The notes under the pieces: generated by a model | The model's input: the letters and a program-made list of their open reading frames with translations, nothing else | The model's database searches: none | Told to the model about the DNA's origin: nothing | NCBI GenBank assembly: GCA_965224195.1 | Contig: OZ245040.1 | Span: forward strand, 480,001 to 544,000 | Source of the DNA: Nitrosopumilus sp. | GTDB taxonomy: Archaea > Thermoproteota > Nitrososphaeria > Nitrososphaerales > Nitrosopumilaceae | Length of the DNA stretch: 64,000 nucleotides | Direction: 5' to 3' | Part shown: piece after piece, positions 6,644 to 38,462 of the stretch | How the letters are laid out: every line of letters begins with the position of its first letter | Numbering within the stretch: position 1 is the first letter of the stretch | Made by a program: the position numbers and the translations under genes

Positions 6644-6767
6644 GATTTGGCTCACCATAGAACAGAATTAAACGTTACTTATACTGATCTCGTACAATAT
6701 ACCAAAATTTGATGTTCAGAATAAAAGTTAAATAAGTCTCATCAGTCAAAACGAGCAGGTAAACCGT

Positions 6768-15406: not shown

Positions 15407-16375
15407 GATGTCCTGCGTAACCAACTGACCTTGGTCATAATCTCAGCATTCCATTACAGCAGGATCCAAAGATAAGAAAAACCGTCTACTTCATGCTAAG
15501 CTATACAAAGCTAGCAGGAAAACCAAAGCAATTCTTGAGGTTTACAGGAATGACCGTAGCACAGTTTGATTTTTTGGCAAAAAAGATACAAAAACAATAC
15601 AAAATTACAGAGAAAAAAAGACTATCCGCAAGAAAAAGAGTTCGTGGTATTGGATCTGGAAGGCCATTCAAGCTTTCAGCAAGGGGTGGGACTCTGGTGT
15701 TGCTAATTCACTGTCGTTGCCATACAAGCTATGGCTTGCTGGAATATCTGTTTGGGGTTGATTCATCAACAGCGTGTAGAGGCATTGCAAGAATTGAGTC
15801 TGCAGTGAAGTGTGTAATTCCAATTCCTGTCAAACTGTATGCTGATTCAAAGAAGATTAACGGCATACGGCAACTGCTGGAATTCTTTCCTGGGCTGATT
15901 GCAATTACTGATGGAGCAGGACAGCAGATCCCAAGACCAGAAAATAAGAAGAGAAAAACCCACTGTTCAGGCAAAAGGAAAGGACATGCAATCAAAAATC
16001 AGATTACGGTTAACCTGAATGGTGGGATTACTCAGACCTCCGCACTCCCCTGGACGAAGAAATGATTACGCAGTACTGAAGATAAAATGCCATTAAATCT
16101 TCAGGTAGGACAGGGCATTTTATGATCCGGGGTATTTGGGTGTTGAGAAAGATCCCCCAAAACAAACTAGCATTTTACCATACAAGAGAGAAAAAGGAAA
16201 AGGGCTGGCCATATCTCAAAAGGATTGGAGCAGGCTACAGAGTAAAATCAGAATAAAAGTAGAACATGCAATTAGTAGAATAAGGAAATTCAGAATCAGT
16301 TCAGAAGCATTTAGGAACAGACTGTGCAGATATGATGGAATAAGCGACATTGTTTGTGGAATTACTAATTTCAAG
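15407..16375 (+). mobile_element. IS5-family (HTH_Tnp_4/DDE_Tnp_4-type) element, frameshifted, right end lost
   Basis: ORFs 15493-16065 and 16136- are homologous to the transposase at 57041; left end GATGTCCTGCGTAA resembles that element's TIR. Confidence 0.85.
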
Positions 16376-17010
16376 AATAGTGCAGTATCATCGTTGAATT
16401 CTTCACCGCCTGATTTTCTCATATTGAGATATCTATCCAATGCCCTTGATGCTTCAGGTGTGAGAAAAGCCCAATATCCCTCTTCAGATTCATCATATAC
16501 TATAATTGCATAACAATCATCTGGCATCCTTTCTAGTCCGTCATATGCCAGGACTGGCTCAGCTATACCATTTGGTCTAATTCCAGTTGATGACAAAAAA
16601 TGAATTAATGCCTTTTCTACTAATTTTGTAGTAGCGCCCAATAAACCAAATACATCATCATCAGATGCAGCGTCTTTACCCCCTTTCTTTCTCTTGTCAT
16701 TTTTGATAGATCTTCTGACTATTTTCTTATGCCATAGTATAGCATTCATATCAAAGAATAATTCTGTAGATGATATCATAACTTGTATTGCTGATTTTTT
16801 TAATGATTCGTTAAGGTAGTAAACCCATGCTTGTAATACGTCTGTTATTTTTTATGGCTCAAATGCAATGAGTTCATCAAAGGACGTATTAGTTTTGATG
16901 TATTTGTTAGATGATGTAAATTTCATAAAGCGATACATATCATACGAATATGTTTTTGGCAGAATCCTCGTTAATGGATCTCCAGAATTTCCTATATTCT
17001 GGGTGTTCTA
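16376..17010 (-). pseudogene. Truncated tyrosine recombinase/integrase
   Basis: KALIHFLSSTGIR...YWAFLTPEAS..LD.Y matches the 33863 recombinase; cut at the IS junction; HxxR and Tyr half absent; 5' end approximate. Confidence 0.8.
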
Positions 17011-27742: not shown

Positions 27743-30481
27743 GTGAGGCCCGAAGATAGTGCACGTCAAGAAATTGATAAAATGCTAATTGATTCAGGTT
27801 GGATAATTCAAGATCATGAGACTAGGAATCTTAGTGAATCGCTAGGTATTGCAGTAAGAGAATATCCGCTAAGTAAGGATAATGTAGATTATGCTCTTTT
27901 CATTAATTCTCAACCCGTAGGAGTAGTAGAGGCAAAAAAATATGGTCATACGTTAAGTGGCGTAGTAGAGCAATCTGAAAAATATCTAGATGGTTTGCAT
28001 GAAAAATTTACCCATTCACCAATACGACCTCCATTTTCATACGAAACCACGGGAATTGAGACAAAATTTGCAGACAGACGTGATCCTAATTTTCGCTCTC
28101 GTTATGTCTTTACATTTCACAGACCTGAATTGCTACAATCCTGGCTCAAAGAAGAGAAAACATTACGTGCAAGATTAAACAACATACCAAAATTGGATCC
28201 TGGTATACTTTGGGAGTGTCAAATTGAAGCCATCACAAATCTAGAGAATTCTCTTTCACAGAATAAACCACGTGCCTTAATTCAGATGGCAACAGGTTCT
28301 GGTAAAACATTCACTGCCGTAACTGCAATTTATCGATTAGTCAAATTTGCAAAGGCAAAAAAAATTTTATTTTTAGTTGACAGGTCAAATTTGGGCAGAC
28401 AGGCATTGCGTGAATTTCAACAGTATGAAACACCTGATGATGGGAGAAAATTTACTGACTTGTATAACGTACAACTGCTACAATCACACACAATTGATCC
28501 TGTCCCAAAAGTTGTAATCTCAACAATTCAAAGAATGTTTTCAATTCTAAAAAATGATAAAGACTATGAGGATGAAAATGATGAATTTTCATCGTTTGAA
28601 GATTTACAGGATGAAACTCCAGTTGAAGTACACTACAATGAAAATATGCCAATTGGAGAATTTGATTTTATTGTTATTGATGAATGTCATCGTTCTATTT
28701 ACAATAAATGGAAACAAGTTCTTGATTACTTTGATTCGTTTTTAATCGGATTGACTGCAACTCCGTCAAATGACACTGTAGGATTTTTCAACAACAACCA
28801 GGTAATGAGGTATACTCATGAGCGAGCAGTTGTAGATGGAGTCAATGTTGGATATCACATGTATAAAATCAAGACCAAAATAACTGATCAAGGGAGTACA
28901 GTAGATGCAGGTCAGTTTATTGAAAAACGTGACAGATTGACACGTAAACGAGAAGCAGAACTGCTTGACATTGACTTGATTTATGCTAAGAACGAACTTG
29001 ACAAATCTGTTGTGTCAAAAGACAGAATCAGATTAATAATTAAAACATTCAAGGAACGATTGCCTGAAATTTTCCCAAACAGGACCCATGTTCCAAAGAC
29101 TCTGATATTTGCAAAAGATGACTCTCATGCAGAAGACATTACAGGTATTGTACAAGAAGAGTTTGGGTTGGGAAATGAGTTTTGCAAAAAAATCACATAC
29201 AGAACCAAAGAAAAACCTGAAGATCTCATATCCAGTTTTAGGAATTCATCAATGCCTAGAATTGCAGTAACAGTTGACATGATTGCGACAGGAACTGACA
29301 TCAAGCCATTGGAATGCATTATCTTTATGCGAGATGTTAGAACTAGGAATTATTTTGATCAAATGAAAGGTCGTGGAACTAGAACAATAAAAAAAGACGA
29401 TTTGATTGCAGTGACTCCTGATGCTAAGAATAAAACACATTTTGTAATTGTTGATGCAGTAGGTTTACGAGAAGATTCAATGAGTGACACTCATTCTCTT
29501 TTACAAAAACCCAACGTATCTTTTACAAAATTATTGGACAAGGCAATTGACAAAAATGCGGATACTGGAGACATTGAAAGCTTGATTTATCGTTTATCTA
29601 GACTAGATAGAAAATTAAACCAAGAAGACAAGGATGAAATTGCAAATAATGGAAAGTCTCTTGTAGAAATAGGGAGAATTTTACTTGATGGAATTGATGC
29701 AGATAAAAGACTAGAACAAGCAAAAGAGCAGTTTGATACTGAAAAACCAACTGACGAACAGATTAGAATCGTATCAAAACAAATGATTGATGAATCTTGT
29801 AAAATTTTTGACTCATCGAAACTACGTAAAACCATACTTGATATCAAATCTAAAAATGAGCAAATTATTGATGATGTATCTATTGATGAATTATTAAAGG
29901 CAGGATTTACAGAACAAGTTAATTCCATTGATAAAAAAACAATAGAGAGATGGTCTGAATTTGTGGAGAAAAACAAGGATCAGATCACCGCACTTGACAT
30001 AATTTACTCAAAGCCTTACAGGATGAGAGAGATTACATTCTCAGATATCAAAGATTTGACAAACTCTATACGGAATCCACCATACAATCTCACATCAGAG
30101 ATGGTCTGGAACGCCTATTCTAGACTAGACAAGTCAAAGGTAAAGAAAAATCCAGCTAAAATGCTGACTGATTTGATATCTCTAGTTAGGTATTCTACAG
30201 GAAAAGAAGAATCATTATTGCCATTTTCAGATGTTGTAGATTCAAAGTTTGAAAAATGGCTGATACAGCAAGAGTCATCAGGGCGAGTATTTACAACAGA
30301 ACAAAAGGAATGGCTGCTTGAAATTAAAAAAGGAATAGCAAGTTCTGTCTCAATTGGCATTGAGGATTTGGATGAAATTCCATTTAACCAAAAGGGCGGT
30401 AGAGTAAAGTTTTATGAAATATTTGGAGATGATTATGAGAAGATTTTAGAAGAACTGCATGAGGTGTTGATTAATTCATGA
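27743..30481 (+). CDS. hsdR: Type I restriction enzyme R subunit (EcoAI/EcoEI-like)
   Basis: DY...VEAKK nuclease motif, MATGSGKT, DECHR, TGTD, QMKGRGTR. Confidence 0.95.
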   Translation: MRPEDSARQEIDKMLIDSGWIIQDHETRNLSESLGIAVREYPLSKDNVDYALFINSQPVGVVEAKKYGHTLSGVVEQSEKYLDGLHEKFTHSPIRPPFSYETTGIETKFADRRDPNFRSRYVFTFHRPELLQSWLKEEKTLRARLNNIPKLDPGILWECQIEAITNLENSLSQNKPRALIQMATGSGKTFTAVTAIYRLVKFAKAKKILFLVDRSNLGRQALREFQQYETPDDGRKFTDLYNVQLLQSHTIDPVPKVVISTIQRMFSILKNDKDYEDENDEFSSFEDLQDETPVEVHYNENMPIGEFDFIVIDECHRSIYNKWKQVLDYFDSFLIGLTATPSNDTVGFFNNNQVMRYTHERAVVDGVNVGYHMYKIKTKITDQGSTVDAGQFIEKRDRLTRKREAELLDIDLIYAKNELDKSVVSKDRIRLIIKTFKERLPEIFPNRTHVPKTLIFAKDDSHAEDITGIVQEEFGLGNEFCKKITYRTKEKPEDLISSFRNSSMPRIAVTVDMIATGTDIKPLECIIFMRDVRTRNYFDQMKGRGTRTIKKDDLIAVTPDAKNKTHFVIVDAVGLREDSMSDTHSLLQKPNVSFTKLLDKAIDKNADTGDIESLIYRLSRLDRKLNQEDKDEIANNGKSLVEIGRILLDGIDADKRLEQAKEQFDTEKPTDEQIRIVSKQMIDESCKIFDSSKLRKTILDIKSKNEQIIDDVSIDELLKAGFTEQVNSIDKKTIERWSEFVEKNKDQITALDIIYSKPYRMREITFSDIKDLTNSIRNPPYNLTSEMVWNAYSRLDKSKVKKNPAKMLTDLISLVRYSTGKEESLLPFSDVVDSKFEKWLIQQESSGRVFTTEQKEWLLEIKKGIASSVSIGIEDLDEIPFNQKGGRVKFYEIFGDDYEKILEELHEVLINS

Positions 30482-31866
30482 ATGAATTGATTTTAGAAGA
30501 AAAGCAAAAATTACCAAATGGATGGAAAGAATCTAATCTAAATTTATTATCTTTAGTTGTTACAAAGGGTTCCACCCCAACCACTCATGGTTTTAAATAT
30601 CAAATAATGGGTATTAATTTTATTAAAGTAGAAAATATTGTTGATGGTTGGATAGATCAAAATACTGTTCATGAATTCATAAGTCAAGATACAAATGATT
30701 ATCTAAAACGTTCACAACTACAAGAAAATGATATTTTATTTTCAATAGCTGGAACTATTGGTAGAACTAGCATTATAAGAAAAATAGATTTACCTGCAAA
30801 TACAAATCAAGCAATTGCAATTATTAGATGTCCGTGGAAATATCTGAATCCAAAATACATCCGTTTGATTTTAGACTCTCCAATTTTATTTCATATATTT
30901 AGTCTTAAGACTCGTGGAGTTGGAATTTATAATCTTAGTTTAAATGATATTAAAGAATTAAAAATTCCAATTCCTCCACTAAACGAACAAAAAAGAATCG
31001 TAGCAAAAATTGAATCAATCTTCTCCCAGATTGATGCAGGACAAACCAAGCTAGATGCGGTTAAGATATTGTTGAAGCAACAGAAACAATCTGTTCTAAA
31101 AGTAGCTTTTGAAGGTAATCTTGTACCACAAGATCCAAATGATGAACCAGCTGAAGTATTATTAAAGAAAATTCATGTCGATTCAAAGATAGAATTTGAC
31201 AAAGAGAATCTTCCAAAGGGATGGATTAGAACAAAAATTGGATTTACTATTGATCCATCAAAAGACAGATTTGATCCGATTACAAATAAAAATAAAACAT
31301 TCATTGGTCTAGAGCACATTGAAAGTAATACTGGAAAGATTATTAGAAAAGGAGAATCAAAAAATCTTACAAGTACAAAAACAATATTCAGATCAGGGGA
31401 TATTTTGTATGGAAGACTACGTCCATATCTTAACAAAGTATGTGTCCCTAATTTTAACGGAGTATGTTCAACAGATATTCTAGTTTTAAAAAAAAACTCT
31501 TTTCTATCAAATAGATTTATTGCGTTATTTTTTGCAACCAATTGTTTTGTCACATATGCAAATGCAAATATGACTGGAGTCCAACATCCTCGTATTAGTT
31601 TCAAAAAAATCTCAATATTTACAATTCCACTTCCACCACTCAACGAACAACATCGCATAGTTACCAAAATCGAATCAATCTTTGGCAGAATTGATGCAAT
31701 TGAAAAGCAAGTAAATGATTCACTAATTAAGCTTGATCACTTGAAAAAAAGTGTACTCAAAAAGGCTTTTGAAGGCAAGCTTGTGCCACAGGATCCAAAT
31801 GATGAACCAGCATCTGTTTTATTGGATAAAATCAAATTAGAGAAATCTCATGTACAGAAAAAATAA
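30478..31866 (+). CDS. hsdS: Type I R-M specificity subunit, complete (TRD-A + TRD-B)
   Basis: Two LP.GW-TRD-PPLNEQ..IV units, each followed by a coiled coil ending AFEG.LVPQDPNDEPA; ATGA overlap with hsdR. Confidence 0.95.
   Translation: MNELILEEKQKLPNGWKESNLNLLSLVVTKGSTPTTHGFKYQIMGINFIKVENIVDGWIDQNTVHEFISQDTNDYLKRSQLQENDILFSIAGTIGRTSIIRKIDLPANTNQAIAIIRCPWKYLNPKYIRLILDSPILFHIFSLKTRGVGIYNLSLNDIKELKIPIPPLNEQKRIVAKIESIFSQIDAGQTKLDAVKILLKQQKQSVLKVAFEGNLVPQDPNDEPAEVLLKKIHVDSKIEFDKENLPKGWIRTKIGFTIDPSKDRFDPITNKNKTFIGLEHIESNTGKIIRKGESKNLTSTKTIFRSGDILYGRLRPYLNKVCVPNFNGVCSTDILVLKKNSFLSNRFIALFFATNCFVTYANANMTGVQHPRISFKKISIFTIPLPPLNEQHRIVTKIESIFGRIDAIEKQVNDSLIKLDHLKKSVLKKAFEGKLVPQDPNDEPASVLLDKIKLEKSHVQKK
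31011..31038 (+). other. Putative recombination site A1 (11-6-11; spacer TCTCCC)
   Basis: TGAATCAATCT-TCTCCC-AGATTGATGCA, arms 10/11 inverted; inside a 146-bp repeat (31009-31154) that recurs inverted at 36034-36179. Confidence 0.7.
31201..31631 (+). repeat. ~430-bp inverted repeat (TRD-B), partner 36217-36647
   Basis: Sense and antisense translations of both copies are identical except for one substitution (T4A9 vs T5A8). Confidence 0.92.
31671..31698 (+). other. Putative recombination site B1 (spacer TTGGCA)
   Basis: CGAATCAATCT-TTGGCA-GAATTGATGCA; overlaps a 35-bp perfect repeat (31672-31706) that recurs inverted at 35422-35456. Confidence 0.7.
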
Positions 31867-31877
31867 ATTTCCAAGAT

Positions 31878-32081
31878 CTAACTGATAAATTTAGATAAAA
31901 TTGTCTTTATTTCCAAAAATATCTTTTTGTTTATTTTTCCAATATTCATTTTAATCAGTTTTTTCTCCACACTAAAAATTCGATTTATTTTTACCCCACT
32001 ATCTACAATCAAATTTCCTTCTTCCATATTTTCGTTTGTAATAATTAGATCATAATCTCTCTTTGCCAAATTAAATATCAA
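31878..32081 (-). pseudogene. C-terminal fragment of a PemK/MazF-like toxin
   Basis: Pattern GNL..DS.VKINRIFSVEKKLI...IGKI resembles the PemK C-terminal half; N-terminal RP motif absent. Confidence 0.45.
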
Positions 32082-32161
32082 TGGAATAACAACCCCATCT
32101 CTTGATTTTTTTTATCATGTTTGTCATTTGATATATTTAATTAATATATCAGAAATGATTC

Positions 32162-33313
32162 ATGAAATCATTGTTATTTCAGCACATATTTCTTCAGACA
32201 GAATTAGGTGGTCTGGTAATATTAACAATAATTATTGCAGTCATAACAAGTGTGATTTTTTATGCTGCTTCCCAAAGAAGCATATCTGCAATCAAAAAGA
32301 AATTACAGCCCTTTAGTAACTTGGATCCAAAAATACAGTATGACGTATCACGAATTGAAACTGATTTGAAAACTGCATACGAAGATTTAACTTCTCTGAA
32401 AACCAATTTACCACACACAAATGAAGTTACATCATTACAGGACAACATACAAAAGCTTTGCTTGGATTTTACATACTTGAAAGAAAACATAGATGAACAG
32501 ATGAATAAATTCAAACTTGGAACTACTGAGGATTTACATAAGACAAAAGATGAGATGATAAAAAATGCGACACAGACAGTCACAGAGCATGCAAACAATC
32601 TCTTACTTGAAAACAGTGTATCCAGAGAAGAATTCGAAAATCTTAAAGAAAGAATTGAAAAAATGGTGGGAGTAGATGAAATAACAGAGAGAATGGAAGT
32701 ATTACAGTTATTATTTGATTCATCACAGATTAAGACATTAAATTGGCAGTGTAAGTTAATTCGATTGTTAAATGGAGGATTGGCACCAGATGCCGAAGAA
32801 GATATTATTATTTCTGAAGGTATTCCAAAATCAAGTTGTGATAAATTCTTAAAAAAACTAACAGATGTTGGAATTACAGAAAACAAAAAAATATCAGCAT
32901 TTTATTTATTACCTGAGTATGAATGGATTTATAGCTATGTTGATAATCCTGATTGGTTACAAAAAAAACTAGATGGTACAATCAAAAAAGAAAATGAATA
33001 TCAAGAATATGTGAAAAATAACTTGAATTTAATAGAAGACGGATTATTACTTGAAAAATCAGAGTATGTGTTAGCAACAGGAAAAATTGATTTTGTTTGT
33101 AGAGATAAAAACGGCTTGGCAGTTGGCTTGGAATTAAAATATCCAATAGCTACAACCACTGTGAAACGACAGATATTAGGATACAAAAATGACTATGAAC
33201 AAAAATCAGGCAGAATAGATTCTAGATTTATTGTTGTCGCACCTAAAATTCCAGACAAACTAAAGGAACTACTTGATATAGATAATATTGAATATAGAGA
33301 GATTGACTTTTAA
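32162..33313 (+). CDS. Membrane-anchored coiled-coil protein with C-terminal NucS/EndoMS-like PD-(D/E)xK nuclease domain
   Basis: TM at aa ~16-36, heptads, then E..YQEY...IEDGL...EY...GKIDFV.RD.....LELK.......QILGY. Confidence 0.7.
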   Translation: MKSLLFQHIFLQTELGGLVILTIIIAVITSVIFYAASQRSISAIKKKLQPFSNLDPKIQYDVSRIETDLKTAYEDLTSLKTNLPHTNEVTSLQDNIQKLCLDFTYLKENIDEQMNKFKLGTTEDLHKTKDEMIKNATQTVTEHANNLLLENSVSREEFENLKERIEKMVGVDEITERMEVLQLLFDSSQIKTLNWQCKLIRLLNGGLAPDAEEDIIISEGIPKSSCDKFLKKLTDVGITENKKISAFYLLPEYEWIYSYVDNPDWLQKKLDGTIKKENEYQEYVKNNLNLIEDGLLLEKSEYVLATGKIDFVCRDKNGLAVGLELKYPIATTTVKRQILGYKNDYEQKSGRIDSRFIVVAPKIPDKLKELLDIDNIEYREIDF

Positions 33314-33364
33314 TAAATTTAACTAGAAAAAGTTTGCAAATTAGAAAATTTATTCAGTTTATTT

Positions 33365-33579
33365 TCAAAAATTCTTTCAGAGTTAATCCTGATTATTTTA
33401 TTATGGAACATAGTGCACCTCTTGCTATTTCTTTGTGATTTGGAACAGTTATTCTTCTGTGAGGATTAATCTTTATTTCTCAATATTATGTGACTGCCTG
33501 TTTGATGATCAACATCATATCCCTTTTTGTGCAATATCTTGAGTAACTCTCTTGCCGAAATAATAGGCAGTTTAGACAG
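33365..33579 (-). pseudogene. hicA: HicA toxin with premature stop
   Basis: LSKLPIISARELLKILHKKGYDVDHQTGSHIILR...TVPNHKEIARGALCSIIK*SGLT; CTG start; not in ORF track. Confidence 0.8.
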
Positions 33580-33585
33580 GTACCT

Positions 33586-33783
33586 CTACAGTTTCTTCAT
33601 CAATGGAGAACGGAATTGGTTCACCATGTTTTTTAGACTTGCGATATATCCTGAAATAGCATCCTTGATGTTAGTTATTGCTAATTCTCTTGCATCTCCT
33701 TGAGATATATATCCAGGCAATTCTAGAACCTCTGATACAAACATCCCATCTTCGTCTTGTTTTATGAATATTCTAAACTTCAT
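33586..33783 (-). CDS. hicB: HicB family antitoxin
   Basis: MKFRIFIKQDEDG.FV.EV.ELPGYISQG...A..NIKDAI. Confidence 0.85.
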   Translation of the reverse strand: MKFRIFIKQDEDGMFVSEVLELPGYISQGDARELAITNIKDAISGYIASLKNMVNQFRSPLMKKL

Positions 33784-33862
33784 GTGATTTGTTAGATACA
33801 TTTAGTATAAAAATTTGAACCATGTGAAATAGTTACAAGTTTCATAAAATATGATTTATAAT

Positions 33863-34777
33863 TTAAATCTCTAGTTTAAACATGACTTTCTTAAATTCTG
33901 CAAATAATTCGCTTAATGTAGGAGTAAAATAAATACCATCAAGACCATTTTTGTGTCCCATTAGCTTTTCTGCAATGTTGTAGTTTACTGAATTATCTAG
34001 TTTTAGAATCGTATTGAATCTTTTTCTAAACCCATGATCAACTTGTACATTATAACGATGATTTTGTTTCTGTCTGATAATGTTACTTTTTAATATTGAT
34101 CTGTATATTACAGATCTAACCCCATTCCATCCAAGCTGCTTTTGAATTGTTTTATCAATTCCAAATATCGGAGTATTATTGCAAAATATTTCTCCTTTTT
34201 GTTTACGTAAATTGTGATATTTGTCAAGAATTGTGGATGCCTGTGGTGTTAGAAATGACCAATATTCGTCTACATCTTCAGCATAAAGCAATACGGCATA
34301 ACTATTGCAAGGCATTTTTTTCATATGTCTAATTGATAAATTATGATCAAAGATTCCTACTCTTGCACCTGTAGATGCAAGAAAATGAATTAATGTCTTG
34401 TTTCTAATGTTCTTCTCCGTATATAATATGTCACGAATTTCATTTGTAGTGTATGATCTCAAGTTTGGGGTTTTTTGTTTTTGCGGAAACATCTTGTATA
34501 TTTTGTTCCAATTAAGATAGATTTCATTCATAATACAAAAATGTTTGATTCCTTGAAACTTTGATGGTATTGAATTAGAATTTGTTGTTTGTTTTAGTTG
34601 TATTAAATAATTTTCTAACTCATGTTGCAATTCTGATGTAGAATAAAGTAATAGTAAATCAACAGAATTTATTTTCATAAATTTAATGAACTGTTTTAGA
34701 TGTGAATTATAATTTTTTGCAGTGTATTTTGATTTGATAGATTCTTCAAATAATATGAGGCTTCTTTGATTTAACAC
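33863..34777 (-). CDS. Tyrosine recombinase (candidate hsdS invertase)
   Basis: Catalytic motifs present: STGAR, HGFRKRF, LMGH, GIYF. Confidence 0.9.
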   Translation of the reverse strand: MLNQRSLILFEESIKSKYTAKNYNSHLKQFIKFMKINSVDLLLLYSTSELQHELENYLIQLKQTTNSNSIPSKFQGIKHFCIMNEIYLNWNKIYKMFPQKQKTPNLRSYTTNEIRDILYTEKNIRNKTLIHFLASTGARVGIFDHNLSIRHMKKMPCNSYAVLLYAEDVDEYWSFLTPQASTILDKYHNLRKQKGEIFCNNTPIFGIDKTIQKQLGWNGVRSVIYRSILKSNIIRQKQNHRYNVQVDHGFRKRFNTILKLDNSVNYNIAEKLMGHKNGLDGIYFTPTLSELFAEFKKVMFKLEI

Positions 34778-34890
34778 TATATAACATTCTTGTAAAGTTT
34801 GTATTTTTGCATAAATGTTTCATAAAATAGATTATCATATTTTTATTTAAAATGTTACTAAAGAATCATATTTTTTATTTCTACTGCAAG

Positions 34891-35130
34891 TTATTTTACA
34901 AGTCCATTATTGTAATCTTTTTCAAATTCATTTCTATCAATGCTTACATCTGTAAGAATTTGTAATTGCAAACCGATTTTTAAGATTTTATTTCCAGCTG
35001 GAACTGTTGTAAAAACATTGTTCTGTCTTAACGTAACATGGCTTCCTTTTCTGCTGGTTATCAAAAATTCTTTTTTGATCAAATATTTTATCATGATATT
35101 GCCAGAAATTCTTGGAATTCTATTCGTCAC
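34891..35130 (-). CDS. hicA: HicA family toxin
   Basis: RIPRISG...RKGSHVTLR...TVP...LKIG...IL. Confidence 0.85.
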   Translation of the reverse strand: MTNRIPRISGNIMIKYLIKKEFLITSRKGSHVTLRQNNVFTTVPAGNKILKIGLQLQILTDVSIDRNEFEKDYNNGLVK

Positions 35131-35341
35131 GTTTTTGAATAATCAACAAATTAAAATCATCTGTATTTCCAATCTCTTCTGATGCAAGATCTACGACTTC
35201 TTTCATGTTCTCCATTACTTCTCCATATGTTTCTCCTTGTGAATTAGCATGTAATTCATCACACCTTCCAATAAATCCTCCATCAATTTTATCTGGAGTT
35301 ATGATAACAGTGTATGTTTTTTTCTGTATTGTAGAACTCAT
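35120..35341 (-). CDS. hicB: HicB family antitoxin
   Basis: YTVII..D..DGGF.G.C.EL.ANSQGET..E.MENMKE. Confidence 0.85.
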   Translation of the reverse strand: MSSTIQKKTYTVIITPDKIDGGFIGRCDELHANSQGETYGEVMENMKEVVDLASEEIGNTDDFNLLIIQKRDE

Positions 35342-36686
35342 GATATGATATCATTGTAAAAAGTATTAAAAGTATTCTAAATTTTATGGATAAAATAATA
35401 TGTACAGATAAGATTACACTATTTTCAATTGCATCAATTCTGCCAAAGATTGATTCAATTTTGAAGACGATGCGTTTTTGCTCGTTGAGGGGAGGTAGAT
35501 GAATCTGAAAATTACGAAATTTGATTAAATTTACTCTTGGTCTAGTTGTTCCTTGGGTATGTTCATTAAATTGCTTGATAACTATGTTTGAATTTATCAT
35601 ATATGTTAGAAATTTTTTTAAAACAAACTCATCACCCACTCTTATCCTAATTATATCTGCAACAATTATGCCTGCCTTTAAAGAAGAAGGAACAATACAT
35701 GCTTTTCCTACTGGAAATCCTAATTTTGTTACTACAATATCATTTTGATGAAAATTATGTCTTTTCAATTTTTGAGCTTTTTCTTTTGTAACGCATATGA
35801 TATTTTTATTAATAAAATAATTTCGTTTAACATTTTGTAATCTAATCAAAGGAATTCCATCATTTACATATTCAGATGATTTGAGATTCGAACCAAAAGG
35901 TCCATCTACAATATCCTGTTTAGGGTTATGGGCCATATCTTTTATTCTAACACATATCCACCCATTTGGAAGATTATCTTTCTCAAAGACTAATTTTTCT
36001 TTGGAGTTTTTGTGTATCTTTTTCAAAAGAATCTCAGCTGGTTCATCATTTGGATCTTGTGGTACAAGGTCACCTTCAAAAGCTACTTTTAGAACAGATT
36101 GTTTCTGTTGCTTCAACAATATCTTAACCGCATCTAGCTTGGTTTGTCCTGCATCAATCTGGGAGAAGATTGATTCAATCTTGGAGACGATGTGGTGCTG
36201 TTCGTTTAGTGGCGGGAGTGGAATTGTAAATATTGAGATTTTTTTGAAACTAATACGAGGATGTTGGACTCCAGTCATATTTGCATTTGCATATGTGACA
36301 AAACAATTGGTTGCAAAAAATAACGCAATAAATCTATTTGATAGAAAAGAGTTTTTTTTAAAAACTAGAATATCTGTTGAACATACTCCGTTAAAATTAG
36401 GGACACATACTTTGTTAAGATATGGACGTAGTCTTCCATACAAAATATCCCCTGATCTGAATATTGTTTTTGTACTTGTAAGATTTTTTGATTCTCCTTT
36501 TCTAATAATCTTTCCAGTATTACTTTCAATGTGCTCTAGACCAATGAATGTTTTATTTTTATTTGTAATCGGATCAAATCTGTCTTTTGATGGATCAATA
36601 GTAAATCCAATTTTTGTTCTAATCCATCCCTTTGGAAGATTCTCTTTCTCAAAAACTGATTCTTTTTTGATCAATGATTCACTCAT
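35289..36686 (-). CDS. hsdS: Second Type I specificity gene (TRD-B + TRD-C) lacking the conserved C-terminal tail
   Basis: ATG at 36686 overlaps the stop of the upstream ORF; homology ends at IFGRIDAIE, followed by a 44-aa unrelated run-on into hicB. Confidence 0.9.
   Translation of the reverse strand: MSESLIKKESVFEKENLPKGWIRTKIGFTIDPSKDRFDPITNKNKTFIGLEHIESNTGKIIRKGESKNLTSTKTIFRSGDILYGRLRPYLNKVCVPNFNGVCSTDILVFKKNSFLSNRFIALFFATNCFVTYANANMTGVQHPRISFKKISIFTIPLPPLNEQHHIVSKIESIFSQIDAGQTKLDAVKILLKQQKQSVLKVAFEGDLVPQDPNDEPAEILLKKIHKNSKEKLVFEKDNLPNGWICVRIKDMAHNPKQDIVDGPFGSNLKSSEYVNDGIPLIRLQNVKRNYFINKNIICVTKEKAQKLKRHNFHQNDIVVTKLGFPVGKACIVPSSLKAGIIVADIIRIRVGDEFVLKKFLTYMINSNIVIKQFNEHTQGTTRPRVNLIKFRNFQIHLPPLNEQKRIVFKIESIFGRIDAIENSVILSVHIILSIKFRILLILFTMISYHEFYNTEKNIHCYHNSR
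35430..35457 (-). other. Putative recombination site B2 (spacer TTGGCA)
   Basis: Minus strand TGAATCAATCT-TTGGCA-GAATTGATGCA. Confidence 0.7.
36150..36177 (-). other. Putative recombination site A2 (spacer TCTCCC)
   Basis: Minus strand identical to site A1. Confidence 0.7.
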
Positions 36687-36892
36687 TCTTTTTTTGAAAT
36701 TTTTGTCTTGTCCCAAACTTGAATTTGTCCGCCGTAAATTTTATCATCATATACTATTGATGGAATCTGTGCATAGAATCCTTCTCGACCAGAACTAAAC
36801 GTCTTTGCAGGCAATGGCACTTCGTATTCTTTTCCATCTGGTATTTTTATTATAACAAATACAAATTCTGGCTTTTCTTCGGACATCGACAT
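36683..36892 (-). CDS. Small hypothetical protein translationally coupled to the second hsdS
   Basis: 69 aa, beta-rich, KTFSSGREGFY; divergent from hsdM. Confidence 0.7.
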   Translation of the reverse strand: MSMSEEKPEFVFVIIKIPDGKEYEVPLPAKTFSSGREGFYAQIPSIVYDDKIYGGQIQVWDKTKISKKE

Positions 36893-36983: not shown

Positions 36984-38462
36984 ATGTCAAATGAGGCACC
37001 AGTTATAGTTCAAAAACTGTGGAATTTCTGCAATGTGCTTAGAGATGATGGCGTATCATATGGTGATTATGTTCAGCAGTTAACCAATTTACTATTTCTA
37101 AAAATGGCAGATGAGCAGACAAAGCCACCATACAAGAAAAAATCAATAATTCCAAAAAAATATGATTGGCAAACTTTAATTGGTAAAACGGGAGATGGTT
37201 TAGAAACTCACTACAGAAATGTCTTAGAAAATTTATCTAAAGAAAAAGAATTGTTGGGAGTAATCTTTAGAAAATCTCAAAACAAAATACAGGATCCTGC
37301 AAAACTAGAGCGCTTAATCAAGCTAATTGATGGAGATTCAAAAGACTCGATTCTTTGGAATGGGATGAATATTGATGTCAAAGGGGAAATCTATGAGGGG
37401 TTGTTAGAAAAGAATGCAGAGGATGTAAAAAGTGGTGCTGGCCAATACTTTACGCCACGTGCATTAATTGATGCAATGGTTGATGTGATGCAGCCAAAAC
37501 CCAAAGAAACAATCGGAGATCCAGCTTGTGGTACTGGTGGATTTTTTCTCTCTGCATACAAGTACATTACAGATAATTTTAATTTGGATCCTGATCAGAA
37601 AAAGTTTCTAAAAATCAAGACCTTCAAGGGATGGGATATTGTAACTGAAGTTGTAAGATTATGTGCAATGAGCATGTATTTACACGGAATAGGCGAAAAG
37701 GCAAGTCAAATCGTATCAGGCGATTCACTAATTTCTGATTCTGGAGATAGGTTTGACATAATAATGACAAATCCCCCATTTGGAAAAAAATCCAGTACAA
37801 TAATATTTTCAGAATCAGGCAGGGCAGAACGTGAAACTCTATCTTATGAAAGAGATGATTTCTGGGCAAGCACCTCAAACAAACAGCTAAATTTTCTACA
37901 ACACACAAAGACAATTCTCAAAGTAAATGGCAAATGTGCCATTGTACTGCCAGACAATGTGCTTTTTGAAGGGGGTGCAGGCGAGACCGTAAGAAAGAAG
38001 ATGTTGGAGATGATGGACTGCCATACTCTGCTAAGGCTGCCAACTGGAATATTTTATGCAGGCGGAGTAAAGGCAAACGTGCTGTTCTTTGACAAAAAAC
38101 CTGCAAGAACAGATGGAAAAGCATGGACACAAAAACTATGGATTTATGATTTTAGAACAAACCAACACTTTACATTAAAAGAGAATCAATTATCAAGAAA
38201 TAATCTAGATGACTTTGTGAAATGTTACAATGCAAAAAATATCCCAAAGCGAAAAGAATCAAAAAATTTCAAATCTTTTTCATATGATGAACTCATTAAA
38301 AGAGACAAGGTATCTTTAGATATTTTTTGGTTAAAAGATGATTCAATTGAAGATGTTGATAATTTACCTCCACCTGAAGAAATATCCAAAGAAATCAAAA
38401 ATAACCTTACATCTGCCCTTAATTCCATAGATGAATTAATTATCAATCTTGGAAGAAATTAG
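36984..38462 (+). CDS. hsdM: Type I R-M methyltransferase (N6-adenine)
   Basis: GQYFTPR, DPACGTGGF, NPPF, LRLPTGIFY. Confidence 0.97.
   Translation: MSNEAPVIVQKLWNFCNVLRDDGVSYGDYVQQLTNLLFLKMADEQTKPPYKKKSIIPKKYDWQTLIGKTGDGLETHYRNVLENLSKEKELLGVIFRKSQNKIQDPAKLERLIKLIDGDSKDSILWNGMNIDVKGEIYEGLLEKNAEDVKSGAGQYFTPRALIDAMVDVMQPKPKETIGDPACGTGGFFLSAYKYITDNFNLDPDQKKFLKIKTFKGWDIVTEVVRLCAMSMYLHGIGEKASQIVSGDSLISDSGDRFDIIMTNPPFGKKSSTIIFSESGRAERETLSYERDDFWASTSNKQLNFLQHTKTILKVNGKCAIVLPDNVLFEGGAGETVRKKMLEMMDCHTLLRLPTGIFYAGGVKANVLFFDKKPARTDGKAWTQKLWIYDFRTNQHFTLKENQLSRNNLDDFVKCYNAKNIPKRKESKNFKSFSYDELIKRDKVSLDIFWLKDDSIEDVDNLPPPEEISKEIKNNLTSALNSIDELIINLGRN

What the first reader, a model, noticed from the sequence alone, without database searches (positions are those of the whole stretch)
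31011..36177. Four dif-like 11-6-11 sites hidden in hsdS coding sequence form two orthogonal nested pairs
Seen: TGAATCAATCT-TCTCCC-AGATTGATGCA at 31011(+) and 36150-36177(-), with arms 10/11 inverted. (C/T)GAATCAATCT-TTGGCA-GAATTGATGCA at 31671(+) and 35430-35457(-). They encode ESIFSQIDA and ESIFGRIDA. Known: tyrosine recombinases bind inverted arms around a 6-8 bp spacer and need matching spacers. Inference: one enzyme acts on both pairs, and the spacer mismatch blocks A x B reactions, including deletion between same-direction sites. This is a natural two-bit switch resembling engineered heterospecific lox pairs.
Basis: partly seen in the sequence, partly recalled or inferred. Interest (0 to 1): 0.88.

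Follow-up and report, generated by a model that had tools for sequence, protein, structure and literature searches.

The report
Archaeal restriction-specificity switch with coded crossover sites
This ammonia-oxidising archaeon carries a well-known kind of DNA-flipping switch that changes which sequences its restriction enzyme targets, and its four 28-base crossover sites show unusually clearly how two different 6-base centres could keep two flips apart.

Summary
Four 28-bp 11-6-11 sites lie at the stated coordinates, and they are the only four in the 2.07-Mb genome.

[quoted passage not shown] An XerA/Cre-like tyrosine recombinase gene lies between them.

Comparison with relatives supports the crossover-site reading:
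- Seven genus-mates' genomes have the same nested A-B...B'-A' layout.
- Partner spacers are identical in 14 of 14 pairs, although spacers differ between genomes.
- The overlap of all 14 exact-identity blocks is exactly the 6-bp spacer.
- Arm codons are frozen at synonymous positions, while neighbouring conserved codons drift.
- Only one of the two heads carries the C-terminal helix, in 7 of 7 genomes.
- The inner segment has the opposite orientation in relatives.
- One public protein is the predicted A x A product.

Not shown: inversion in reads (low power), enzyme activity, and A x B exclusion.

The kind is known from bacterial hsdS invertons, and this scan has noted archaeal ones on other DNA. 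I rate it a new member of a known kind.

The parts
27743..30481 (+). hsdR (912 aa). Its stop overlaps the hsdS start (ATGA).
   Evidence: Pfam ResIII, EcoEI_R_C, HSDR_N; ORF list
30478..31866 (+). hsdS, 'head 1': TRD a - site A1 - central conserved region - TRD b - site B1, then the only C-terminal conserved helix ('tail 1', 31699-31866).
   Evidence: Pfam Methylase_S, 2 stretches; translation; tail comparison
31011..31038 (+). Site A1, 11-6-11, spacer TCTCCC
31671..31698 (+). Site B1, 11-6-11, spacer TTGGCA
31195..31670 (+). TRD b. It is 96% identical, in inverted orientation, to TRD b' at 36178-36653.
   Evidence: inverted repeat I1 (its arms 31195-31698 and 36150-36653 run on into sites B1 and A2)
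32162..33313 (+). NucS_C-domain protein (383 aa) inside the invertible segment, downstream of tail 1
   Evidence: Pfam PF01939; 82-86% identical copies in the same position in G291 and G322
33586..33801 (-). HicB-like small ORF downstream of the recombinase gene
   Evidence: Pfam HicB_lk_antitox E 4.5e-5, below cut-off
33863..34777 (-). Tyrosine recombinase (304 aa) with a two-domain Xer/Cre-like fold. Candidate invertase.
   Evidence: AlphaFold2 model pLDDT 86.6; Foldseek top hits XerA 5hxy E 8e-10, 4a8e, Cre, XerH; R139, H248, R251, H275, Y283 invariant in 73 sequences; Pfam PF00589 only 20.6 bits, cut-off 27.1
34891..35130 (-). HicA-like ORF between head 2 and the recombinase gene. A 73-aa ORF at 35120-35341 overlaps the junk tail of head 2.
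   Evidence: Pfam HicA_toxin 27.3 bits; ORF list
35430..35457 (-). Site B2, spacer TTGGCA, followed by an unrelated 'tail 2' that ends at 35289
36150..36177 (-). Site A2, spacer TCTCCC
35289..36686 (-). hsdS', 'head 2': TRD b' - A2 - central conserved region - TRD c - B2, without the C-terminal conserved helix. Its ATG at 36686 overlaps the stop of a 69-aa ORF (36683-36892).
   Evidence: Pfam Methylase_S; translation; ORFs; sequence
36984..38462 (+). hsdM (492 aa), outside the invertible segments and divergent from head 2
   Evidence: Pfam N6_Mtase, HsdM_N

Best explanation
The locus is an invertible type I restriction-modification specificity locus (an hsdS inverton, or shufflon) of a Nitrosopumilus-type archaeon. 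Two complete hsdS 'heads' face each other, each reading TRD1 - site A - central helix - TRD2 - site B. Between them lies a single C-terminal helix ('tail'), a NucS-like gene, hicA/hicB-like genes and an XerA/Cre-like tyrosine recombinase gene.

The four 28-bp sites are the recombinase's core sites. Each has two roughly inverted 11-bp arms for binding around a 6-bp overlap where strands are exchanged. The sites sit in the same codon phase inside the conserved HsdS motif KIESIFxxIDA, so every product stays in frame.

- A x A inversion (about 5.1 kb) swaps the [central helix + TRD2] cassettes.
- B x B inversion (about 3.7 kb) hands the single tail to one head or the other.
- Together they give four states with predicted complete HsdS proteins a/b (the window's state), b'/c, b'/b and a/c.
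- Both inversions together amount to a cassette exchange.

The arms of A and B are nearly the same, so one enzyme can bind both. The spacers differ at 4 of 6 positions. By the general rule that tyrosine recombinases need matching overlap regions, this should prevent A x B events, including deletion of TRD2 between A1 and B1.

Shown: anatomy, recombinase fold, DNA-level constraint on the arms, partner-specific spacer identity, the single tail, and opposite orientations of the inner segment among species.

Inferred: that this enzyme does it, the position of cleavage, A/B insulation, expression of both heads, and loss of function without the tail.
For: (1) Anatomy. The gene order is hsdR, hsdS, NucS-like, recombinase (-), hsdS' (-), hsdM. 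The sites are nested A-B...B'-A'.

(2) Recombinase. The AlphaFold2 model has pLDDT 86.6. Its best PDB matches are archaeal XerA, Cre, XerH, IntI and lambda Int, with 67 matches at E <= 0.001. A profile search hits XerA at E 0.0046. R, H-x-x-R, H and Y are invariant in 73 sequences.

(3) The same nested layout, with a recombinase homologue (66-90% identical) in the fetched locus, occurs in 6 further genus-mates' genomes of the 11 loci fetched. One more record shows it too.

(4) Codon analysis of 37 hsdS sites in 12 loci. The arm codons are almost fixed:
- TCA 37/37
- ATC 36/37
- ATT 37/37
- CAG 19/19 in A sites
- GAA 35/36
- GCA 34/36
Flanking conserved codons vary, for example Ser -3 (TCC 9, TCA 12, TCT 2), Pro, Leu, Arg, Val and Lys. 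ATC, CAG and TTC are minority codons in the window, at 17%, 23% and 21%.

(5) Spacers.
- Partners show 0 differences in 84 spacer positions, against 7 in 308 arm positions.
- Across the seven genomes there are four spacer variants of each type.
- The 14 exact-identity blocks overlap only at +11..+16, which is the spacer.
- Random pairing gives 7 of 7 matches in 3 and 4 of 20,000 trials.

(6) In 7 of 7 genomes exactly one B site is followed by the ...AFEGKLVPQDP... helix.

(7) The tail and NucS gene are joined to the hsdR-side head in the window and G274. In G291 and G322 they are joined to the hsdM-side head.

(8) Protein P0006, from another public assembly, reads head 2 (TRD b') - site A - the hsdS-type central region - TRD b. 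That is the A x A product.

(9) A paralogous type I family repeats the grammar.
- In G372 the nested pairs have spacers TTTCAG/TTTCAG and TGTCGG/TGTCGG, and both sites encode ASILSGVDA.
- The window's own genome has a second such locus with a 67% recombinase paralogue.
Against: - No strand-changing joint was listed in four public runs. Power was low: the k-mer contigs break at the repeats, and the raw Hi-C reads give only about 3-8x depth.
- P0006 could be an assembly chimera across the 108-bp A repeat.
- The window's recombinase scores below Pfam's cut-off. Paralogues also occur away from any hsdS gene.
- The palindrome persists in hsdS genes with no recombinase nearby. G328 has no homologue in the genome. 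G083 has only 28-29% relatives.
- The B arms in the window match only 8 of 11.
- Partner sites share ancestry, so identical spacers are not independent events.
- TRD b occurs after A in one head and before B in the other. TRDs have therefore moved between positions by some route.
Confidence: 0.75

Rival explanations
1. The rearrangements are made by general homologous recombination or gene conversion between the conserved hsdS regions. On this view the palindrome is a by-product of coding KIESIFxxIDA, and the neighbouring recombinase serves something else, such as a mobile element.
For: - In the window the A repeat is 108 bp of exact identity, and TRD b/b' is a 504-nt inverted repeat at 96%.
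- Recombinase paralogues occur without hsdS neighbours (L080-L083).
- The palindrome exists in recombinase-less hsdS loci.
- In S. pneumoniae the longer repeats invert without PsrA (PMC4948785, passages).
Against: - Partner identity shrinks to 22-56 bp in most relatives and always covers the spacer. That is short for homologous recombination.
- Synonymous positions of the arms are frozen while adjacent conserved codons drift.
- A recombinase homologue lies in all 8 two-headed loci examined, and in the paralogous loci.
Confidence: 0.1
2. The sites are real recombinase sites, but the spacer difference does not insulate A from B. Either A x B events occur and are simply selected against, or partner choice is set by something else, such as arm differences, topology or accessory factors.
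For: - Some tyrosine recombinases tolerate overlap heterology (recalled general knowledge).
- TRD b is found in both positions.
- The site at the B position of G372 has a spacer (TCTCTA) that starts like A-type spacers and ends like B-type ones.
- A and B also differ in the first bases of the right arm.
Against: - 0 of 84 spacer positions differ between partners, while the positions directly beside the spacer (+10, +17) do differ in some pairs.
- A and B spacers differ in all 7 genomes.
- In G372's second locus A and B differ only by synonymous changes.
Confidence: 0.15
3. The locus is a fossil. It once inverted but is now fixed in this strain, and the heterogeneity in the reads comes from co-existing strains.
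For: - No inversion joint appears in the reads.
- Depths of TRD a and c are about 65-70% of the flanks, and other TRD sequences follow the conserved motifs. This fits mixed strains.
Against: - The recombinase gene is intact with all catalytic residues.
- All four sites have perfectly matching partner spacers.
- P0006 shows the other A state in near-identical sequence.
Confidence: 0.1

Closest known systems
Mycoplasma pulmonis hsd1/hsd2 loci with vip and hrs sites and the HvsR recombinase
   Same: - Two facing hsdS genes.
- Two different kinds of short recombination site inside hsdS.
- One tyrosine recombinase generates chimeric hsdS genes.
Source: PMC5149525 table; PMC7672463 passages. Details of vip and hrs are recalled, not read.
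   Different: - HvsR is encoded elsewhere in the genome (PMC7672463). Here the recombinase gene lies inside the locus.
- Here the two site kinds share the same arms and differ in the 6-bp centre.
- The host here is a free-living archaeon.
- I could not compare sequences.
Streptococcus pneumoniae SpnD39III / cod (ivr) locus with PsrA/CreX
   Same: A type I locus with a recombinase gene between hsdS copies. Several distinct inverted-repeat pairs (IR1 15 bp, IR2 298 bp, IR3 85 bp) give several HsdS alleles (PMC4948785 passages).
   Different: - The pneumococcus has one expressed hsdS plus silent partial copies.
- Only the 15-bp IR1 needs PsrA.
- Here there are two full heads and one shared tail, with two short sites of identical design.
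Epigenetic invertons surveyed by Huang et al. 2020 (PMC7672463), and archaeal cases noted earlier in this scan
   Same: The defining set is two or more opposed hsdS genes, in-frame inverted repeats and a nearby invertase. The survey lists Euryarchaeota loci (4 in REBASE, 11 in NCBI). Earlier notes e1-2600094 and e1-6369853 describe archaeal hsdS shufflons on other DNA.
   Different: - 91.9% of the survey's species are host-associated.
- The table rows I read were cut short. Those I saw show no Thaumarchaeota or Nitrososphaerota row, and the supplements were not read.
- This recombinase has no significant sequence match to any solved structure except XerA.
Archaeal XerA / dif and Cre / heterospecific lox pairs
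   Same: - Best fold matches.
- 28-bp 11-6-11 geometry, as for dif.
- The same arms with different spacers, as in engineered lox variants used for cassette exchange (recalled).
   Different: - These are not dif sites: there are four copies, inside coding sequence, in inverted pairs.
- Non-cross-reactivity of the spacers is untested here.

Membership tests
Invertible hsdS locus (epigenetic inverton / hsdS shufflon) | Two or more hsdS genes in opposite orientation within one type I R-M locus | tested here: met
   hsdS 30478-31866 (+) and hsdS' 35289-36686 (-), with hsdR and hsdM
Invertible hsdS locus (epigenetic inverton / hsdS shufflon) | Inverted repeats inside the hsdS genes that keep the reading frame after inversion | tested here: met
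   All four sites are in the same codon phase
Invertible hsdS locus (epigenetic inverton / hsdS shufflon) | Site-specific recombinase gene in or beside the locus | tested here: met
   33863-34777 (-). Fold. Homologue present in all 8 two-headed loci examined.
Invertible hsdS locus (epigenetic inverton / hsdS shufflon) | Alternative arrangements observed within a population | tested here: inconclusive
   No inversion joint in 4 runs, with low power. One chimeric public protein, P0006. Opposite inner-segment orientation among species.
Tyrosine recombinase superfamily (Xer/Cre-like, two domains) | Core-binding plus catalytic domain fold | tested here: met
   Foldseek: XerA 5hxy E 8e-10, 4a8e, Cre, XerH, IntI, lambda Int
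Tyrosine recombinase superfamily (Xer/Cre-like, two domains) | Catalytic R, H-x-x-R, H/W and Y conserved | tested here: met
   R139, H248, R251, H275 and Y283 are invariant in 73 sequences. The catalytic Lys was not assigned.
Tyrosine recombinase superfamily (Xer/Cre-like, two domains) | Pfam PF00589 above the gathering score | tested here: not met
   20.6 bits against a cut-off of 27.1. About half of the 120 listed homologues carry a precomputed PF00589 hit.
dif site of Xer chromosome-dimer resolution | Single site per replicon acting in dimer resolution | tested here: not met
   Four copies in inverted pairs inside hsdS genes. Only the 11-6-11 geometry is shared.
Heterospecific site pairs (lox-variant type cassette exchange) | Same binding arms, different spacers, partners with identical spacers | tested here: met
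   Partner spacers 0 of 84 differences. A versus B differ at 3-5 of 6 positions. The closest A and B arms differ at 0-2 of 22 positions per genome.
Heterospecific site pairs (lox-variant type cassette exchange) | Sites with unlike spacers do not recombine with each other | not testable with these tools
   Needs reporter or in vitro assays

The most novel reading that the evidence does not exclude
The 6-bp spacer may act as a genome-wide address code for one family of Xer-like recombinases. All paralogous hsdS loci in a cell share the arm core TG..TCAATC / TTGA.GCA. Which site recombines with which would then be set only by the spacer, sometimes through purely synonymous codon choices. This would give several insulated two-bit registers in one archaeal chromosome, and a natural, ready-made set of orthogonal recombination sites.
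Probability: 0.35. Interest if true: 0.65.

Novelty: new member of a known kind. Interest (0 to 1): 0.45.

Why it matters
Switchable type I specificity is mostly described in host-associated bacteria. Here it appears in free-living marine ammonia oxidisers, where the likely pressure is viruses rather than a host.

The short, sharply bounded sites offer a clean natural test of the rule that spacer identity chooses the partner in tyrosine recombination:
- They have conserved arms.
- Their spacers vary between species but never between partners.
- In one relative's paralogous locus, A and B differ only at synonymous positions.

If the enzyme works in a heterologous host, the site and spacer sets could serve as orthogonal recombination tools. 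The sites also explain why this part of hsdS is frozen at the DNA level.

Tried and rejected
Reads. Four runs were laid.
- No inversion joint was listed.
- The contigs end at the repeats, and the raw reads are too shallow to decide.
- The only joint (30481 to 31190, with 6 extra letters) is a different hsdS allele that starts with TRD b. It is not an A/B product.

JGI metagenome scans:
- The exact A site gave 0 hits.
- The degenerate site gave 9 loci, none with hsdS, hsdR, hsdM or recombinase homologues. I treat these as chance matches.

The GTDB-wide scan gave 23 stretches. I examined 10 of them. The 6 from non-Nitrosopumilus-type records had no hsdS context.

Recombinase checks that added little:
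- The first structure model, from 9 sequences, was poor (pLDDT 46) and was not used.
- A single-sequence PDB search found nothing.

'dif' membership was rejected (see the membership test).

Arm-versus-paralogue co-variation was considered and not supported. The recombinase of G372's second locus is closer to the window's enzyme (68.5%) than to the locus-2 paralogue (63.5%), although its sites are of the locus-2 type.

From the family scan (31 of 401 genomes matched) I fetched loci from 11 genomes. G381, G311 and the remaining genomes, most with a single 1- or 2-mismatch hit, were not fetched.

Literature searches found no paper on hsdS inversion in Nitrosopumilus or ammonia-oxidising archaea. 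Supplementary tables of the surveys were not read and may list such loci.

Full report
OBSERVATION

- A1 31011-31038 (+) and A2 36150-36177 (-) read TGAATCAATCT-TCTCCC-AGATTGATGCA.
- B1 31671-31698 (+) and B2 35430-35457 (-) read (C/T)GAATCAATCT-TTGGCA-GAATTGATGCA.

A search for the arms with up to 3 mismatches finds only these sites in the window. It gives 6 hits, which include 2 palindromic self-hits. Shuffles give a mean of 0.06, and 0 of 100 shuffles reach 6. The whole 2.07-Mb genome has no further copy. The sites encode ESIFSQIDA and ESIFGRIDA.

The A arms are 10 of 11 inverted. The window's B arms are 8 of 11.

The repeats are longer than 28 bp here.
- A1/A2 are identical over 108 bp (-2..+105).
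- B1/B2 are identical over +1..+35, then diverge completely.

SURROUNDINGS

The gene order is hsdR (27743-30481), hsdS (30478-31866), a NucS_C-domain gene (32162-33313), a 304-aa recombinase gene on the minus strand (33863-34777), a second hsdS on the minus strand (35289-36686) and hsdM (36984-38462).

HicA- and HicB-like ORFs flank the recombinase gene.

Both hsdS starts overlap the stop of an upstream ORF by ATGA. For head 1 that ORF is hsdR. For head 2 it is a 69-aa ORF.

Upstream lie archaeal-type PheRS genes. The window has 33.6% G+C.

A scan of one genome per GTDB species finds this site in an hsdS setting only in records titled Nitrosopumilus sp. or Nitrososphaerales archaeon.

THE RECOMBINASE

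On its own the protein misses Pfam's cut-off for PF00589 (20.6 against 27.1 bits), and it has no sequence match in the PDB.
- It has 798 relatives at E <= 1e-5. About half of the 120 listed carry PF00589.
- An alignment of 73 relatives keeps R139, H248, R251, H275 and Y283 invariant.
- The profile from that alignment hits archaeal XerA at E 0.0046.
- It gives an AlphaFold2 model with pLDDT 86.6.
- The model's best solved matches are XerA (5hxy, 4a8e), Cre, XerH, IntI and lambda Int.

It is therefore a simple two-domain tyrosine recombinase. Enzymes of this kind use sites of two inverted arms around a 6-8 bp overlap (established knowledge).

COMPARATIVE EVIDENCE

In 401 genomes of the family, 31 match the site with up to 2 mismatches. 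I fetched 11 of these loci.

Six genus-mates (G177, G274, G291, G353, G371, G384) have the same nested A-B...B'-A' layout, with a recombinase homologue in the fetched locus. So does one more record from the GTDB-wide scan.

(a) Synonymous constraint (37 sites in 12 loci). The arm codons are almost fixed:
- TCA 37/37
- ATC 36/37
- ATT 37/37
- GAA 35/36
- GCA 34/36
- CAG 19/19 in A sites

Conserved residues just upstream use several codons, for example Ser -3 (TCC 9, TCA 12, TCT 2), two Pro, Leu, Arg, Val, Lys and Ile -1. ATC, CAG and TTC are minority codons in this window, at 17%, 23% and 21%. The wobble base of the Phe/Leu codon is C in A sites and T in B sites, with one exception.

(b) Spacer co-variation.
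- Between partners, 0 of 84 spacer positions differ, against 7 of 308 arm positions.
- Across the seven genomes there are four A spacers and four B spacers.
- The 14 exact-identity blocks range from 22 to 284 bp.
- Partners share ancestry, so these are not 14 independent events. Even so, the contrast with the immediately adjacent positions is what a requirement for overlap identity predicts.

(c) A and B spacers differ at 3-5 of 6 positions in each genome.

(d) One tail. In 7 of 7 genomes exactly one B site is followed by the C-terminal conserved helix (...LKxAFEGKLVPQDPxDEPA...). The other runs into unrelated sequence with an early stop.

(e) Orientation. The tail and the NucS-like gene are attached to the hsdR-side head in the window and G274. 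In G291 and G322 they are attached to the hsdM-side head. In G353, G371 and G384 the flipping segment carries hsdM or hsdM-hsdR.

(f) A 269-aa protein from another public assembly (P0006) reads head 2 with TRD b', then site A, then the hsdS-type central region and TRD b. That is the A x A product. It could be an assembly chimera, and its contig could not be fetched.

The palindrome also occurs in hsdS genes without a nearby recombinase:
- G328 has no homologue in the genome.
- G083 has only 28-29% relatives, far away.
- G372 and G359 have homologues more than 170 kb away.

The site is less well kept there. I count 6 departures from GAATCAATC / ATTGAYGCA in 7 sites, against 2 in 30 sites of recombinase-linked loci. 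The sample is small, and it was found with a DNA pattern, which biases against decayed sites. Other sites in the family that fit the ESI[FL]xxI[DN]A pattern use other codons. I did not check whether they lie in hsdS genes.

A SECOND FAMILY REPEATS THE DESIGN

The genome has recombinase paralogues.

The 67% paralogue lies in a second type I locus: hsdR, YgjP-like, hsdM, an AAA-domain (PF13671) gene, hsdS, recombinase. Its sites sit at the same place in the HsdS motif, here IASILSxVDA.
- One inverted pair is identical.
- A second pair appears decayed.

In G372 the corresponding locus has a complete nested set. Its partner spacers are TTTCAG/TTTCAG and TGTCGG/TGTCGG. Both sites encode ASILSGVDA, so A and B differ only at synonymous positions.

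Arm type does not track recombinase similarity. This leaves open that the spacer alone sets the pairing.

MECHANISM

A x A inversion exchanges the cassettes [central helix + TRD2]. B x B inversion moves the single tail, with the NucS-like gene, from one head to the other, and moves hicBA and the recombinase gene the other way.

| State | Head 1 | Head 2 |
|---|---|---|
| Window | a-b-tail | b'-c-junk |
| B inverted | a-b-junk | b'-c-tail |
| A inverted | a-c-junk | b'-b-tail |
| Both inverted | a-c-tail | b'-b-junk |

This is a two-bit switch with up to four specificities, provided both heads are expressed and a head without the tail is inactive. Both conditions are inferred. Unlike spacers should prevent A x B events, including deletion of TRD2 between A1 and B1. 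This is inferred from the general behaviour of Cre, Flp and Xer enzymes.

WHAT SPEAKS AGAINST IT

- No inversion joint appeared in four public runs, though power was low.
- The same runs show that the locus is heterogeneous. TRD a and c have about 65-70% of the flanking depth. TRD b-specific words have about 18%. TRD b' has about 130-145%. An allele starts directly with TRD b, and another sequence follows site A after +33.
- This fits mixed strains at least as well as switching does.
- TRD b sits in position 2 of one head and position 1 of the other at 96% identity. TRDs have therefore moved between positions by a route that A/A and B/B inversions cannot provide.

COMPARISON WITH WHAT IS KNOWN

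hsdS invertons with tyrosine recombinases and several distinct repeat pairs are well described:
- S. pneumoniae (IR1, IR2, IR3 and PsrA; PMC4948785, passages).
- M. pulmonis (vip and hrs; PMC5149525 table).
- A survey of 827 loci in 235 species, 91.9% host-associated, with a few Euryarchaeota (PMC7672463, passages).

[quoted passage not shown] This scan has noted archaeal hsdS shufflons on other DNA.

My searches found no description in ammonia-oxidising archaea. Supplementary tables were not read.

The finding is therefore a new member of a known kind. Its particular value is the sharply defined 28-bp sites and the comparative signature of spacer-coded partner choice.

Noticed in passing
G000:C1:1093000-1112000 (locus L045), outside the window: There is a second type I R-M locus in the same genome: hsdR, YgjP-like, hsdM, an AAA-domain (PF13671) gene, hsdS and a 67% recombinase paralogue. 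It has analogous 11-6-11 sites coding IASILSxVDA. One inverted pair is identical (+8250 / -600). The partner of the second site differs by a 1-base indel, next to a DDE transposase fragment.
   Followed up: partly
L079 (G372:C1:1703000-1722000), sites at 6740, 7262, 11619, 12255: A complete nested A-B...B'-A' set in the paralogous hsdS family. A and B encode the same peptide, ASILSGVDA. Their spacers (TTTCAG, TGTCGG) differ only at synonymous positions, and each is identical to its partner's.
   Followed up: partly
window 31195-31698 and 36150-36653: A 504-nt inverted repeat at 96%. The same TRD (b/b') is the distal TRD of hsdS and the proximal TRD of hsdS'. It is a possible substrate for homologous inversion, which would give a three-TRD gene and a one-TRD gene.
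   Followed up: no
window 30481-31190, 31044, 31236, 36144: The public runs show locus heterogeneity.
- One joint skips 708 bp with 6 extra letters, giving an hsdS that starts with TRD b (depth 44 of about 400 in X1; 2 raw reads in X4).
- A different sequence follows site A after +33.
- Another TRD follows ENLPKGW.
- Depths of TRD a, c, b and b' are unequal.
   Followed up: partly
window 16375-16908 (-): A recombinase-like stretch, 31% identical to the locus recombinase over residues 31-205, with a TAA inside. It is probably a decayed paralogue (place G000:C1:496375-496908).
   Followed up: no
window 32162-33313 (+): A 383-aa protein with a C-terminal NucS_C nuclease domain travels with tail 1 inside the invertible segment. 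Copies 82-86% identical sit in the same position in G291 and G322. Its role is unknown.
   Followed up: partly
window 33586-33801, 34891-35130, 35120-35341 (all -): HicB-like, HicA-like and a further small ORF flank the recombinase gene. The junk tail of hsdS' reads into the 73-aa ORF.
   Followed up: partly
L080-L083 (G372, G359, G000 paralogue loci): Recombinase paralogues of 34-61% identity have no hsdS, hsdR or hsdM homologue within about 9 kb. The family is therefore not restricted to hsdS loci.
   Followed up: no
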